DNA from: an uncultured cyanobacterium
GTDB taxonomy: Bacteria; Cyanobacteriota; Cyanobacteriia; Leptolyngbyales; Leptolyngbyaceae
Direction: 5' to 3'
DNA length: 64,000 nt
NCBI GenBank assembly: GCA_963766075.1
Contig: CAVYAN010000017.1
Location: forward strand, 101,727 to 165,726
Shown here: in pieces, positions 1 to 63,228 of the stretch
Layout: the number at the start of each line of letters is the position of its first letter
How positions within the stretch are numbered: the first letter of the stretch is position 1
Notes under the pieces: model-generated
What the model was told of the DNA's origin: nothing
The model's input: only the letters and a program-made list of their open reading frames with translations
Databases searched by the model: none
Position numbers and translations under genes: made by a program

Positions 1-295
1 GAGGCGATGGGTGGTGGCGATCCCAGAGACGAGTGGGCGTTGGGTGAATGAGGCGATCGCGATGAACTCAGTGATCGGGCCGGGGACGTGGGGGGATGCC
101 ATCCGATGGGCGATGCTCTCCGAACTCTGGGGCTAAGGCAATTGCTGTTAAACTCCACTCCCCTGCGGGTAGCCAGCGAGTAGTAGAGCTTACACTGAGT
201 CGTATAAAGAACTCGTATTTTTGTCTGCATCTAAAACTTTTCTAAAATTTTAGACCACTTTTTAGGTGCTGATCGTAGAATTTAGACGGCTGCTG

Positions 296-459
296 AATTC
301 GGATGATTGAGTCATTCAAAATAACCTATGCGAGGGGATTCGGATGATTGAGTCGTGCGAAGCAGTCAATTTAAGGGTGTTAGGATGACACAAGCATCCT
401 ATTTCACTGATTTCCGGTGATTAGGATGATTAAGTCAGTCCAATTACATTGTTATGCGG
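296..459 (+). repeat. Four-unit array with exact 41-bp period (TT[C/A]GGATGA core), ending in a GTTATGC core-like site
   Basis: GGATGA at 301, 342, 383, 424. Units 1, 2 and 4 share GGATGATT[G/A]AGTC. Unit 3 has the perfect inverted repeat TAGGATG-N7-CATCCTA. GTTATGC at 451-457. Confidence 0.85.
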
Positions 460-590
460 TAAGTCTTCGGTGGGGAAGTAGCTGAAAGCTTGCTTTTTTC
501 CCAGAAATCAGCTTAGCCTCTAACCACAACAAAAAATCGTTTAGGTTGGGTAAAATGTTGAATATTTGATCGAGAGCAGGAGAATAGACC

Positions 591-2504
591 ATTAGCGTTC
601 CAATCGGTTTTTTTTTAACAGAGGAACATGTCAGGAAGGCTATTGAACTTCTGACTTGCCAAATTCAATCTAACTCACGCAGTCATCGCAGCTTAGATTT
701 AGAAATTCTTAGAAGAGAAAATGCTCTTGCTGCAATTGTTTTAGAGCAGTTTTACACCAATTACGTTTGCAACGACCTCTGTTTTAATTACCCAGGCTTA
801 TTCCGTGCTACTCCTTATTCTGTGCCTAAAGGTGATGGTGGGGTACGTCAATTTCACTTTCTTGAAATTTCCCTCTGGATACTGTATTACGTTTTAGGAT
901 TTTATTTTCTTGATTTAACGCAAGCAATGCGAATTGAATTGCATTCAATTCAAGAACGTGCATCAATTTATACTTACTATGGCGCAAATATTCGTTTAGT
1001 AAATCCAACGGGAAGCCAGATCCATTATCAGGAAGATTATCAAGAATTTACAAGGAATATACGCCGAGCAGTACGTCGCCAAGTGCAAAATCATAAAGTT
1101 GCTGTTTTGCACCTAGATATTCAAGATTTTTTCCGTTCAATTGATCATTCTCGTCTCATGCAAGTTTTAGCCGATCAAGCATTACCAGCATCACGACTTC
1201 GCCTTCGTTATGACGAGCATACGCGGTTGACAATTCGGGAAATCTTATTTCTAATAATGCGGCGTTCAGAAGGTTTGCCTATATCTCAACAGAATATTGT
1301 CTCCAATCTTTTGAGCCATCTCTTTCTCTATCCACTTGACTGTTGTATACGTGAGATTCAGATGGAGATTAATACATCTCTTACTTTTCATCGCTATGTT
1401 GATGATATGTTTCTCACTGTACAGTTCTCTAATGTAGAAATTAATGAGAATATTGGAACAAAGATGCTTGATATTTCGACTCGAATTGGTGAACATTTAT
1501 CAAGTAATCTTGGATTAACTCTAAATCCGCTTAAAACCAGATTAGATATTCTTGCCTCAGAGGATGATGTTGACGAATTGATTGAACGTAGTCGTCTTGT
1601 AAGTTTCTACCATCCTTTACCAGAGGAGGGAGGAGAGCCGCCTCAAGAAACCTTAAATCGCGCAATTTTAGTTTTAAGAACGTTGAGAAACAGGTTTAGA
1701 GAGCGAGGATATGTAGACAGAATTGCAACTAACGATGATTTAGCTCTTAAACAGTGTTTTCAAAAAGCTGTTGTTAATTACACGCGCAGTGAGCAGGCTC
1801 AACAGCAACTTGAAGAAGTTTTCCATGATTGGCATCCTGCTTTAATGTCAAAGAGCATAAAGGTTTTAGTCTTCCTAGTATCTCGTGTACCAACGGCACT
1901 AAATACACTCCTTAATTATGTTTGTGAGGGTTTAAGAAACCCACAACCATCCTTAACTATTGTTCATTTGGCAGAGTATTTGATGCTTATAGAGGAATAC
2001 AATGGAGAGCTCAATAATGAAGTAATCCACCTTCTTCAAACATCTTCCAATCCATATACTCATTTGCTTGGTCGTCTTGTAAATCCGCTTTCTTCTTCCA
2101 GTAATCGCTACATTAATATAGAAGATAGCTGCCTACAGGCACACAGAAGTATTATGCAACAAGTTCGCCGTACAATTATTGCGGAAAGACGTGGAGTACA
2201 CGGTTTAGCTTATAACCATTTATTGAATGTTTTACAGGAGTGGTGTTTTTGTAATCAGCGGCAAAGTGTAACCCGAAATCATTATGATCGACATCATGTA
2301 GTAAGTTGGCTTGAACCCATTGCAAGCCATTCTGAAATTATGTTTGTAATCACAATATTTGATCGACGAAATCGTAATACAATTTCACATCCTGGAGATG
2401 AGAGTGTTGAGATTGCTCCAGTTAATCAAACTGAATATGAAGAACATTTAGAAAAGCTAAATCATCTTTTACCCAATTTTTGGAGGCGGCTCCCTAATTG
2501 TTAG
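591..2504 (+). CDS. AbiA-like abortive-infection reverse transcriptase with C-terminal HEPN domain (about 637 aa if started at ATT 591)
   Basis: RT motifs LDIQDFF, GLP, RYVDD, LNPLKT; C-terminal RNTISH (R-x4-H HEPN). Frame is open from 588 to the stop at 2504; AGGAG at 578-582 precedes ATT 591. Architecture and size resemble lactococcal AbiA. Confidence 0.8.
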   Translation: MSVPIGFFLTEEHVRKAIELLTCQIQSNSRSHRSLDLEILRRENALAAIVLEQFYTNYVCNDLCFNYPGLFRATPYSVPKGDGGVRQFHFLEISLWILYYVLGFYFLDLTQAMRIELHSIQERASIYTYYGANIRLVNPTGSQIHYQEDYQEFTRNIRRAVRRQVQNHKVAVLHLDIQDFFRSIDHSRLMQVLADQALPASRLRLRYDEHTRLTIREILFLIMRRSEGLPISQQNIVSNLLSHLFLYPLDCCIREIQMEINTSLTFHRYVDDMFLTVQFSNVEINENIGTKMLDISTRIGEHLSSNLGLTLNPLKTRLDILASEDDVDELIERSRLVSFYHPLPEEGGEPPQETLNRAILVLRTLRNRFRERGYVDRIATNDDLALKQCFQKAVVNYTRSEQAQQQLEEVFHDWHPALMSKSIKVLVFLVSRVPTALNTLLNYVCEGLRNPQPSLTIVHLAEYLMLIEEYNGELNNEVIHLLQTSSNPYTHLLGRLVNPLSSSSNRYINIEDSCLQAHRSIMQQVRRTIIAERRGVHGLAYNHLLNVLQEWCFCNQRQSVTRNHYDRHHVVSWLEPIASHSEIMFVITIFDRRNRNTISHPGDESVEIAPVNQTEYEEHLEKLNHLLPNFWRRLPNC

Positions 2505-2512
2505 GTGAAGCA

Positions 2513-2599
2513 GCATAGCAACCCTGTTGGAGCGGATTGCCGAGAGATCCTGGCTGTGTTGCATAAGTTATTGACAACCGCTCAACAGGAACGTTATAC
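2513..2599 (+). mobile_element. attC-like integron cassette recombination site
   Basis: GCATAGC (degenerate inverse core) ... CCTGTTGGAGCGG / CCGCTCAACAGG arms with one extra G ... GTTATAC core; directly after the RT stop. Confidence 0.75.
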
Positions 2600-2617: not shown

Positions 2618-3340
2618 GTGAATCCCACAATTAGGGCGGCAGTCCAAAACCTATTTGAGAATAAGTTAAATCTCGGGAAATGTCCTTCTTGTTCAGCATG
2701 TGATGCGATGTTCAAGAATCCGCTAATGCCTTGGTACATCGGAGATAATTTCTATCAAACCAAGGAGCGCGTCCTATTCTTCGGCAAACCTCATCGCGGA
2801 ACCCCGGGAGAAGTCCTAGAGTCCGGAATTATCGATCCTTCAAAAATAGTCTTAGAACTTATAGATAAAAGTTGGCCTTACTGGAGCTACACAAAACATA
2901 TTGGAGAGCAATTGTATGGAGAGAACGGGATAGATTATTTAGCAATGTCCAACATTATCAAATGCACAAATGTTAATGCGGACAAGCCCGGAAAAGCCGT
3001 AGACAATACTTCAATAAAAATGGCTGAAGCTTGTATTGGAAATTTGGGTGTAATTTTCGAGGAAATCGAAATTATCAATCCAAAAACGTTGATTTTCTAT
3101 ACTTGTGGGCTTTTCCCGGAAATTTTAGTTTCAGCAATCGAGAAGAAATTCAATAGAACTAAAATAGGCATTTCGAGCAGCGTTAAATGTGGAAAAAAGT
3201 CCCTTCAAACCCGGGAGCTGCTTATTGAAACAAAGAGTGGTGAGCATTTGAATGCTTTAATTGTAGGACATCCAGAAAGAATGAAGAAAGACGATTTCTG
3301 CTTCTATATTTCGGAGTGGATTAAGGCAAAGAATCCTTAA
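2618..3340 (+). CDS. Uracil-DNA glycosylase superfamily-like protein
   Basis: Motifs VLFFGK, SNIIKC, EEIEIINPKTLIF and C-terminal GHP fit the UDG-like fold pattern; AT-rich; follows an attC core. Confidence 0.6.
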   Translation: MNPTIRAAVQNLFENKLNLGKCPSCSACDAMFKNPLMPWYIGDNFYQTKERVLFFGKPHRGTPGEVLESGIIDPSKIVLELIDKSWPYWSYTKHIGEQLYGENGIDYLAMSNIIKCTNVNADKPGKAVDNTSIKMAEACIGNLGVIFEEIEIINPKTLIFYTCGLFPEILVSAIEKKFNRTKIGISSSVKCGKKSLQTRELLIETKSGEHLNALIVGHPERMKKDDFCFYISEWIKAKNP

Positions 3341-3444
3341 TAAATGCACAAAGGGCCGCGCTAAATTCATTAGGGCGCGATCTCCGATCTCGTAGGATGC
3401 TTTAGCGCCCGCGTAAAGCATCATCCCATGCAATGTGTAGTAAA

Positions 3445-3718
3445 AGTAGGGTGGGCATTGTCTACATTCACCTTTGCATCCGGCAGTAAGGCGATTTCCG
3501 ACAAATAATATACCTGCTGCTGGCTACCCTGCGGGAAGCGAACTACGGCTCCGCTCAGCCAGCGAGAGATTGCTCCCTACCCTGCGGGAAGCGAACTACG
3601 ACTTCGCTCAGGGAGCAATCTTGGTCGGTATAATTTTTCCTGGAAATCGCCCAACTTGAGTGGAGTACCGCACAACCCAACGCTCTAAAGCCAGCGATCG
3701 CCTCTCTCGGCTAAAATA
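3445..3718 (+). repeat. Composite repeat copy 1: GTAG-type REP plus MITE-like element (GGCGATTTCC...GGAAATCGCC, 3490-3651) plus promoter-like tail
   Basis: Near-identical to 4389-4656; 10-bp terminal inverted repeats; internal CTACCCTGCGGGAAGCGAACTACG motifs. Confidence 0.85.
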
Positions 3719-4024: not shown

Positions 4025-4392
4025 TTCTAGGCAACGTCAACATAAATCGTGAGGCGGTGATTCAGATTGCTGTTTTGAGCGATCGCAAGCAAGTCAAAGC
4101 TGTCAGAGCAGTGATTGATACAGGATATACAGGTGACTTGATGTTGCCGACAGCGATTGTCAAAGAGTTAGGTTTAACTCTTCGAGGAATCCAGGATACG
4201 ACTCTGGGCGACGGTAGCCTGACGATGTTTGAGATGTATGCAGGTTCCGTAATCTGGGATGGGCAAGTCCGAAGGGTTGAGGTTAATGCGTCAGAAACAG
4301 AGTTCTTGGTTGGCATGGGCCTATTGGAAGAGCACAAGTTAGAGATCGAGGCTAGACCTGGCGGTATGGTTAGAATTACTGCTCTCTCGTAG
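4021..4392 (+). CDS. Clan AA (retropepsin-like) aspartic protease
   Basis: AVIDTG catalytic motif, LGDG flap, LVGMGLL C-terminal motif; 123 aa. Confidence 0.85.
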   Translation: MILGNVNINREAVIQIAVLSDRKQVKAVRAVIDTGYTGDLMLPTAIVKELGLTLRGIQDTTLGDGSLTMFEMYAGSVIWDGQVRRVEVNASETEFLVGMGLLEEHKLEIEARPGGMVRITALS

Positions 4393-4656
4393 GTGGGCAC
4401 TGCCCATATTCACCTTTGCATCCGGCAGTAAGGCGATTTCCGACAAATAATATACCTGCTGCTGGCTACCCTGCGGGAAGCGAACTACGGCTCCGCTCAG
4501 CCAGCGAGAGATTGCTCCCTGAGCGCAGTCGAAGGGAGCGCAGTCGAAGGGAACAATCTCGGTCGGTATAATTTTTCCTGGAAATCGCCCAACTTGAGTC
4601 GAGTACCGCACAACTCAACGCTCTAAAGCCAGCGATCGCCTGCCTAAGCTAAAATA
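4389..4656 (+). repeat. Composite repeat copy 2 (MITE-like core 4432-4589)
   Basis: Near-identical to 3445-3718 except one internal motif is replaced by GAGCGCAGTCGAAGG x2. Confidence 0.85.
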
Positions 4657-7208: not shown

Positions 7209-7239
7209 TCCGCAACGGTCTACGCGCCAAGTCATCCTA

Positions 7240-7415
7240 GGCGATTTCCCAGAAATAATATATCCACTGGGTCATCAATCCGCTGGCTACCCTGCGGGAA
7301 GTAAACTACGACTTCGCTCAGCCAGCGGAAGATTGCTCCCTACCCTGCGGGAAGCGAACTACGACTCCACTCCGGGAGCAATCTGGGTCGGTAGATTCTT
7401 GTATAGAACTCTCCG
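7240..7415 (+). repeat. Third, degenerate copy of the MITE-like element
   Basis: GGCGATTTCC left end and the same internal motifs as 3490 and 4432; right end eroded. Confidence 0.75.
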
Positions 7416-62175: not shown

Positions 62176-62448
62176 TTATTCCGTGCGCATGCCCCGAGAG
62201 GCAACACGAATGATCACCGGAGTAGATTTAATGGCAATGGCTTTGCTCCATTCACTGGCCCCAATCACGTTGACTTGGTGTAGGAGGTTGACCATGGCCC
62301 GGACGGCGGGGCGGGAGCCGGTGAGGGTGATGTTGACCCATTCGTTGCCGAGGGTGGTGAGGTCGGTGATGAAGTCGCGATCGCGTGAGGCCGGATCGTT
62401 GAGAACGGACGGGCAAACGCGGCTATCACTCGGCGGTTGAGTAGTCAT
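62176..62448 (-). CDS. Small hypothetical protein
   Basis: AGGAG RBS before MTTQPP; LTGSRPAV..LLH..EWS block resembling a recurrent cyanobacterial small-protein family. Confidence 0.55.
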   Translation of the reverse strand: MTTQPPSDSRVCPSVLNDPASRDRDFITDLTTLGNEWVNITLTGSRPAVRAMVNLLHQVNVIGASEWSKAIAIKSTPVIIRVASRGMRTE

Positions 62449-62833
62449 GATGGGTCTCCTTGTGTTTTTTGTGGGGGAAGGAAACCCAAAAACCAAAGCC
62501 ACCCCGATGCGTTGCAGAGCAGGGTGGCTTGTAAAATGTGACAAGCCGCCATGCTGGTGTGTTCAGCTTGGGGGTTAGCGATCGCTTGGTGGTTGCAAGC
62601 ACTGGGCGATCGCGTTTTATGGCAGAGGCTTTTGGGCGTCTGGGTGAGCGCAGTTAAACCTAGGTGCACTCACCTTAACGCAAGAGAATACCGAATCGCG
62701 CCGCACTTTGCAAGCCCTATTTTGAGTAAATTTGGGATGGACGGGCATTCCTGTGGGGTTGCCATCCACCGATGGCTTGAGATCAAGTTTTGGGAACCCA
62801 AAATCAAGTTGCATCTAGAGCCTACGCCTGAAT

Positions 62834-62950
62834 TTAGGCATCCAAGGGACTGCGCACCCCCAAACCGCCCCGATTGAGGACGTGGGTGTAAATCATCGTG
62901 GTTTTGACATCCTTATGGCCGAGGAGTTCTTGGACGGTACGGATGTCGTA
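62834..62950 (-). pseudogene. intI: C-terminal remnant of integron integrase
   Basis: Translates [38 protein letters not shown], the characteristic IntI C-terminus with catalytic H and Y; too short for the ORF track. Confidence 0.9.
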
Positions 62951-63084
62951 GGGATATCCGTACCGTCCAATATTCATGTATTAAGCACTACTCGAATTGA
63001 TTCAGTAATAAGTCTAAAGATTTACGGAAGAAATTGGCTCACAGTTTCGTCTACAGGATAAAATTTAAGTGAGATTGGAGTTTC

Positions 63085-63228
63085 GGCATAACACTCCATA
63101 TAGAGGTAGATATGCAGAATTATTTCTGCATAATGTTCTGTAGAGGGCAGTTATGCCGAATATTTCTACATAACACCCCGTGTAGAGGTAGATATGCAGA
63201 AATATTCTCTATAAATAATAGTTATGCC
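63085..63228 (+). repeat. About 41-bp-period palindrome array bracketed by GGCATAAC ... GTTATGCC
   Basis: TAGAGG at 63101, 63141, 63183; perfect TATGCAGAA-N4-TTCTGCATA at 63111-63132. Confidence 0.8.

What the first reader, a model, noticed from the sequence alone, without database searches (positions are those of the whole stretch)
296..459. Exactly phased 41-bp repeat array directly upstream of an AbiA-like RT-HEPN gene
Seen: four units with GGATGA at 301/342/383/424, an about 18-nt conserved half and an about 23-nt variable half. Each unit holds an imperfect palindrome around 7 bp (perfect in unit 3). The array ends at GTTATGC, followed by a GC/T-rich hairpin (about 473-502) and then the RT. 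Known: AbiA-type RTs are protein-primed, template-independent polymerases with no described RNA partner; type III TA loci have a repeat array-terminator-toxin layout; tyrosine recombinase sites are inverted half-sites around 6-8 bp. Inference: either (a) an undescribed array-encoded RNA that guides, templates or inhibits the RT-HEPN, or (b) a multi-site recombination/operator element. The similar period at 63085 and a possible -10 (TAAAAT 551-556) downstream of the array favour (b), but neither is excluded.
Basis: partly seen in the sequence, partly recalled or inferred. Interest (0 to 1): 0.82.

Follow-up and report, generated by a model that had tools for sequence, protein, structure and literature searches.

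The report
Integron landing pad before antiphage gene
The four evenly spaced repeats are real and likely form the gene-capture landing site of a cyanobacterial integron with no integrase gene beside it, likely a row of binding sites for that enzyme, and the reverse-transcriptase gene behind them is likely a swappable anti-phage cassette rather than the partner of a repeat-encoded RNA.

Summary
The array is real (lag-41 identity 0.55 vs 0.25±0.04 background). It is best read as an integron attI region, not an RT-partner RNA. It ends in a simple site (439-457, GTTATGC), and the AbiA-like RT-HEPN gene is followed by an attC (2513-2599). Similar 39-43-bp arrays lie on the attI side of 53 of 80 integrase-search loci from this class, against 6 of 87 opposite flanks. 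A profile built from other genomes' arrays finds this one (E 1e-4). RT relatives share sequence from the G|TT crossover onward (97% after, 37% before) behind different arrays or none. Dyad mismatches show no G·T bias. Half-site base 5 tracks IntI residues 25/28; this array fits a different IntI than the genome's only intact one. IntI binding is inferred; no RNA data were available. The scan had already noted such arrays on other DNA; eight literature searches listed no description of them.

The parts
297..445 (+). Phased array ('type A'). Core-like half-sites at 297-303, 338-344, 379-385 and 420-426 alternate with inverted half-sites at 315-321, 356-362 and 397-403; period 41 bp. Likely accessory integrase-binding sites of attI.
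   Evidence: Sequence; periodicity; foreign-trained profile hit at 353-457; half-site model.
439..457 (+). attI simple site: L box 439-445, 5-bp spacer, R box GTTATGC 451-457; predicted crossover between 451 and 452.
   Evidence: Sequence; the profile aligns its crossover here. In related loci shared sequence begins at this G|TT.
452..2593 (+). Gene cassette carrying the RT-HEPN gene (leader, own promoter-like motif, ORF, attC).
   Evidence: Bounded by GTTATGC 451-457 and the attC R' at 2593-2599; R'' matches the cassette start at 6/7 (sequence).
541..560 (+). Conserved -10-like motif (TAAAAT 551-556) in the cassette leader, downstream of the array; likely the RT's own promoter.
   Evidence: TANNNT in a conserved context in the window and 5 of 5 relatives displayed. 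The consensus promoter scan does not call it.
591..2504 (+). AbiA-like RT-HEPN, 637 aa, likely ATT start 8 nt after AGGAG (578-582). YVDD at 269-272; R593-X6-H600.
   Evidence: PADLOC AbiA E 6.7e-43; TIGR04499 129.5 bits, below its 250 cut-off; top fold match 8OZ7 AbiA, TM 0.63; alignment.
2513..2599 (+). attC: R''-5-L''(8) ... L'(7)-5-R'. R'' carries AGC instead of AAC.
   Evidence: One of 4 hits of a strict anatomical scan of the 5-Mb genome, 0 in the reversed decoy; bottom-strand hairpin z -2.06; similar sites on C65 and C109.
2618..3340 (+). Gene in second cassette position, 240 aa, UDG-superfamily-like lead; no attC detected behind it.
   Evidence: Atlas feature score 0.96; no Pfam or PADLOC hit; attC scans.
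62837..62950 (-). intI 3' remnant in front of the second platform.
   Evidence: TIGR02249 positions 277-314; 100% identical to the intact IntI's last 38 aa.
63082..63227 (+). Second array ('type B') ending in GTTATGC 63221-63227; 88% identical to the array beside the intact intI on C41; followed by DUF6883-DUF4926 and an attC-like hairpin cut by the contig end.

Best explanation
The array is likely the extended attI landing site of an integron platform with no integrase gene beside it, likely a phased row of integrase-binding half-sites, and the AbiA-like RT-HEPN gene is likely its first, exchangeable gene cassette. Shown: alternating inverted half-sites of GTTRRRY type repeat every 41 bp and end in a simple site; the same layout sits in front of most intI genes examined in this class; sequence shared between loci starts at the G|TT; an attC closes the RT gene. 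Inferred: IntI pairs load every four helical turns along the double-stranded array and favour attI x attC insertion at the last site, as DR1/DR2 do for attI1. Inferred: this array co-evolved with an IntI of the R25/E-Q-V28 type that is not in the assembly, so the platform is frozen or only weakly served by the one intact IntI (S25/K28). Inferred by analogy with Lactococcus AbiA: the RT is transcribed from its own leader promoter and defends by protein-primed, template-independent DNA synthesis without an RNA partner.
For: (1) 53 of 80 attI-side regions have 39-43-bp periodicity at p<=0.01, against 6 of 87 3' flanks; best lag 40 or 41 in 42 of 80 vs 3 of 87. (2) A profile from 53 arrays of other genomes hits 353-457 over model positions 5-107 at 26.5 bits, E 1.5e-5; reversed-genome decoy best 8.7 bits. 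Without the three arrays added by eye: 23.6 bits, E 1.2e-4. (3) RT loci L045 and L050 are 97% identical over 230 nt after G|TT and 37% over 100 nt before. (4) One 143-bp ORF-less cassette follows three array types in this genome (C65, C37, C11): 98-99% after, 37-49% before. (5) attC at 2513-2599. (6) Dyad mismatches across 53 arrays: G·T 77 vs A·C 81 and 105 vs 95, no RNA-type bias. (7) IntI residues 25 and 28 rank first and second of 170 columns for half-site base 5 (adjusted R2 0.42, 0.41; 47 loci). The 11 IntIs with non-basic residue 25 have G there in 0 of 60 half-sites, against a mean of 0.63 in the other 42. (8) attI1 has a simple site plus two IntI-binding repeats, and attI co-evolves with its integrase (PMC8946536, PMC3146285, passages).
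Against: No intI or remnant lies at this locus, and no intI-linked copy of this exact sequence type was found in 400 other genomes (its 4 other hits are unrelated repeats). The second type-A copy (C22) ends at the contig end and scores weakly (E 0.6-1.4). 27 of 80 attI sides show no significant period. Binding was not measured. The 25/28 covariation is modest and not corrected for kinship: 8 label changes on a quick tree, 3 forced. PMC2811028 (passages) names only K160 as base-specific at the GTT triplet and is silent on these residues. RT stands directly behind an attI-type site in 4 of 7 close loci, and none of the 4 other host genomes tested has an IntI above cut-off, which is not explained.
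Confidence: 0.75

Rival explanations
1. The site is an attI, but the upstream dyads are operators for another protein (host regulator or accessory factor) that controls the integrase or cassette promoter, not IntI landing sites.
For: The arrays fill the intI-attI interval where both promoters would lie. Earlier scan notes describe palindrome arrays with a companion gene at attI in other bacteria (e1-9832002, e1-9887763; not tested here). A 90-aa ORF module accompanies most platforms in this genome.
Against: The half-site consensus is the integrase core itself and runs in register into the L box. Four array types coexist in one genome and change with IntI residues. The 90-aa ORF was found in 0 of 89 foreign loci within the 0.9-1.5 kb flanks held.
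Confidence: 0.15
2. The array is transcribed into repeat RNA that templates, guides or inhibits the RT-HEPN (type III TA-like or DRT-like).
For: 296-440 folds at z -3.5, as any palindrome row would. RT follows an attI-type site in 4 of 7 close loci. AbiA's HEPN dimer has a basic cleft of unknown ligand (PMC11077055, passages).
Against: The arrays at RT loci differ in sequence and length (one unit in L050). L046 and L047 show none in the 466 and 281 nt held; L043 (94% aa identity) lacks this array and has only one dyad-like hit overlapping the cassette leader. The same layout precedes unrelated genes. No G·T bias, no terminator, no Rfam match at gathering score. With about 10 attI and about 26 attC in this genome (my count), 4 of 7 first positions has P 0.2.
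Confidence: 0.04
3. A decayed tandem duplication without function that happens to abut a cassette.
For: Units are only 63-71% alike; the integrase is missing here; the exact sequence type is confined to this genome among those searched.
Against: Period, dyad geometry (half-site spacings 21-23 and 18-19 nt) and the terminal simple site are kept across many families while spacers diverge. The present copy may be inactive, but its origin is not neutral.
Confidence: 0.04

Closest known systems
attI1 of class 1 integrons (simple site plus DR1/DR2; PMC8946536, PMC3146285, PMC4792948, passages read)
   Same: L box, 5-bp spacer, R box GTTRRRY; crossover at G|TT; core-like accessory repeats upstream; lies between the intI start and the first cassette in intact platforms.
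   Different: About 150 bp here rather than 65 bp; mostly 3-5 forward half-sites per array (37 of 54) alternating with inverted ones at a fixed 40-42-bp period, against two direct repeats; PMC3146285 reports that most environmental attI lack repeats.
CALIN / integrase-less arrays (Cury et al. 2016, PMC4889954, passages read)
   Same: Cassette with attC and no intI nearby; one intact intI elsewhere in the genome.
   Different: An attI is retained, and only one attC was detected here, so the two-attC definition is not met.
AbiA of Lactococcus (PMC11077055, passages read; PDB 8OZ7; TIGR04499)
   Same: RT + helical + HEPN order; R-X6-H motif; best fold match, TM 0.63; a Tyr (340; 10 of 12 homologs) at a low-confidence loop after the RT domain.
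   Different: 13-14% identity; below the family cut-off; cyanobacterial integron cassette; likely ATT/ATC start.
RT-ncRNA systems DRT2/3/9 (PMC9226505, passages read) and type III toxin-antitoxin loci (layout recalled, not looked up)
   Same: Repeat or non-coding DNA directly upstream of an RT/toxin gene.
   Different: The upstream element is not inherited with the RT, has no terminator and shows no RNA-type pairing bias.

Membership tests
Integron attI | Simple site with R box GTTRRRY and degenerate L box | tested here: met
   439-457; profile alignment.
Integron attI | Cassette exchange at G|TT | tested here: met
   Shown for related arrays. For type A itself only indirectly: the C22 copy ends at this point.
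Integron attI | Divergent intI adjacent | tested here: not met
   No intI or remnant at this locus; present at the type-B array on C41 and at the foreign loci.
Integron attI | IntI binding and attI x attC recombination | not testable with these tools
   Needs footprinting and a recombination assay.
Integron attI | Cassette promoter Pc upstream | tested here: inconclusive
   One weak sigma-70-like match at 221-248; chance expectation 0.9.
Integron gene cassette | attC with R''/L''/L'/R', 5-bp spacers, extra base, bottom-strand hairpin | tested here: met
   2513-2599; one mismatch in the R'' triplet.
CALIN | At least two attC sites without intI | tested here: not met
   One attC at this locus.
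AbiA | RT domain with catalytic YxDD, helical domain, C-terminal HEPN with R-X4-6-H | tested here: met
AbiA | Curated family score (TIGR04499 >= 250 bits) | tested here: not met
   129.5 bits over residues 43-627.
AbiA | Protein-primed template-independent synthesis and anti-phage activity | not testable with these tools
   Inferred from PMC11077055 only.
AbiA | HEPN-mediated dimer | not tested
   No complex prediction was run.
RT-ncRNA / type III TA-like | Upstream repeat element conserved with the protein across homologs | tested here: not met
   No match to window 1-470 in 5 loci by BLASTN; L050 differs upstream of G|TT.
RT-ncRNA / type III TA-like | Terminator between array and gene | tested here: not met
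RT-ncRNA / type III TA-like | Abundant small RNA from the array | not testable with these tools
   No RNA holder listed.

The most novel reading that the evidence does not exclude
Cyanobacterial integrons use an undescribed attI design: a four-helical-turn lattice of integrase pairs whose sequence is read by a two-residue code in IntI (positions 25 and 28). Genomes collect scattered orphan landing pads of several codes; pads that do not match the resident integrase, like this one, lock defence cassettes such as the AbiA-like RT in place.
Probability: 0.45. Interest if true: 0.65.

Novelty: new variant of a known kind. Interest (0 to 1): 0.45.

Why it matters
attI sites are unknown for most integrons and cannot be searched for (PMC4889954), and how an integrase tells its own attI from others is open (PMC4792948). 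A long, periodic, natural series of half-sites paired with dozens of IntI variants makes that question testable by residue and half-site swaps, and gives a profile that finds integrase-less landing sites. The RT itself is a divergent AbiA-like defence candidate in a known setting, since integron cassettes carry anti-phage genes (10.1101/2024.07.02.601686).

Tried and rejected
BLAST of the array in 60 related genomes gave only one 34-nt match. A type-A spacing pattern in 400 class genomes gave 4 genomes, all unrelated tandem repeats without intI, attI or attC hits. Viral contigs: no type-A pattern and no RT relative; plasmids: no RT match. Sequencing runs: no RNA holder listed; four DNA contig sets covered only pieces of the cassettes, not the array, so neither is evidence. 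No contig overlaps the C22 end at 15 nt or more. Rfam gave one chance-level match. The PDB sequence search did not reach AbiA; the fold search did. The first covariation scan over all 53 loci was dominated by one divergent clade, so that clade's 6 loci were left out for the ranking (L092 was also on the drop list, giving 47 of 53 in all). Two arrays whose crossover was not located (L016, L097) were dropped from the profile. Distant RT relatives (24-30% identity, L051-L053) show no array or profile hit. The careful tree did not finish; a quick tree was used. The 90-aa ORF as general array partner was rejected.

Full report
Observation. The four units are at the stated places. Lag-41 identity is 0.55 against a genome background of 0.25±0.04, reached by 1 of 20,000 windows. 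The hairpin behind the array is not significant (z -0.09) and is not called a terminator. A second copy of the array, 93% identical, ends at the end of contig C22 one base into the expected crossover; that break is suggestive only.

Setting. The gene content points to a cyanobacterium (my reading of the ORFs; close RT relatives are from named cyanobacteria). The assembly is 85% complete and holds one intact integron integrase (C41, 464.6 bits, cut-off 265) and several 3' remnants, one at window 62837-62950. The array at 63082-63227 is 88% identical to the DNA between that intact intI and its first cassette. I count ten array-bearing platforms of four sequence types: A (window 297, C22), B (window 63082, C41, C31, C65), C (C31, C11) and D (C10, C37). 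Where the end is assembled, each finishes in L box, 5-bp spacer and GTT.

Generality. IntI relatives occur in 102 of 301 genomes of the class. I examined 90 loci: the own intI, the 29 best others, 58 further near-full-length hits chosen from the roughly 150 listed, and 2 distant tyrosine recombinases as controls. Of 80 with at least 300 clean bases on the attI side, 53 have 39-43-bp periodicity at p<=0.01, against 6 of 87 on the 3' side; neither control passed. Related genomes are not independent. Successive forward half-sites are 40, 41 or 42 bp apart in 43, 55 and 12 cases. The consensus half-site is RTTAKRC, the integrase core.

Membership of this array. A profile trained on 53 arrays from other genomes hits window 353-457 at E 1.5e-5 with the crossover in register; the reversed genome gives at most 8.7 bits. 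Three training arrays were added by eye, one because it resembled this array. Without them the hit is 23.6 bits, E 1.2e-4.

The RT is a cassette. The protein is AbiA-like by profile and fold but below the curated cut-off. An attC follows at 2513-2599, one of 4 strict hits in the genome with none in the decoy. Six close relatives were obtained with DNA (L043-L047, L050). L044, L045 and L050 share the cassette from G|TT onward but have different upstream arrays; L045 and L050 are 97% identical after and 37% before the crossover. L043, at 94% protein identity, lacks this array; L046 and L047 show none in the short flanks held. A -10-like motif downstream of the array is kept in the window and the 5 relatives displayed. 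Independently, one ORF-less cassette stands behind arrays of types B, C and D in this genome, with identity starting at GTT.

DNA site or RNA. In 53 arrays the dyad mismatches are G·T and A·C equally often (77:81 and 105:95), which gives no sign of selection on a single-stranded fold. No RNA run was listed, so transcription is untested.

Which protein binds. Following a lead from an earlier scan note (e1-9895655), I found that IntI residues 25 and 28 rank top of 170 columns for the fifth base of the core. IntIs with S, Q, E or A at 25 have G there in 0 of 60 half-sites. They align to K21 and E24 of VchIntIA, PDB 2A3V; that this helix reads the major groove is recalled, not checked. The genome's IntI is S25/K28, and the window's type-B array has T in 7 of 7 half-sites, whereas this array has G in 6 of 6. 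It therefore likely belonged to another integrase, lost or unassembled. The signal is modest and not corrected for kinship.

Open points. The RT stands first behind an attI-type site in 4 of 7 close loci. That is not beyond a rough 35% baseline (P 0.2). None of the four other host genomes tested has an intact IntI, including a complete one, so these cassettes appear fixed after integrase loss; the mechanism was not examined.

Literature. Eight searches listed no description of periodic attI arrays in cyanobacteria; 'cyanobacterial integron' gave 0 papers. I read passages only, of PMC8946536, PMC4889954, PMC11077055, PMC3146285, PMC4792948, PMC2811028, PMC9226505 and 10.1101/2024.07.02.601686. 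No supplements were opened, and supplements or subscription papers could hold such alignments. The scan had already reported these arrays on other DNA, in other genomes and elsewhere in this one.

Verdict. A real feature and a variant of a known kind: an orphan, phased attI with an AbiA-like first cassette. Interest 0.45.

Noticed in passing
window 578-593; L043-L047 RT starts: Read by eye: in the window, L043, L044 and L045 an in-frame stop lies just upstream and no ATG/GTG/TTG precedes ATT/ATC, which sits 7-8 nt after AGGAG; L046 and L047 have an in-frame TTG. A rare start codon may keep this RT low.
   Followed up: partly
window 2618-3340: Gene in second cassette position resembles uracil-DNA-glycosylase-superfamily clusters (Atlas 0.96); possible anti-phage role.
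   Followed up: partly
G000 C65:48807(-), C37:2700(+), C11:1727(-): The same 143-bp ORF-less cassette is first behind three different array types; function unknown.
   Followed up: partly
L009 9458-10003 (just upstream of window base 1) and window about 62180-62726: A 90-aa ORF with a conserved leader has 21 tblastn matches in the genome and often flanks attI platforms; no NCBIfam hit; not found beside 89 foreign loci.
   Followed up: partly
G160 (complete genome), L050: A one-unit attI plus RT cassette follows directly on what looks like a housekeeping gene, in a complete genome without an IntI above cut-off.
   Followed up: partly
window 3420-3660, 4390-4640, 7230-7400: A dispersed repeat of about 200 bp separates pairs of small toxin-antitoxin-like or aspartyl-protease-like genes; a piece lies inverted at 158-174. 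It was not hit by the attC scans.
   Followed up: no
window 451-495 and first cassettes of L022, L033, L037, L039, C60: Many unrelated first cassettes begin with a similar leader ending in a G-rich run about 20 nt after GTT; possibly a shared cassette-leader family.
   Followed up: no
G000 C8, C31, C41, C90 behind the intI 3' end: Tandem 21-bp repeats of variable copy number follow the intI stop.
   Followed up: no
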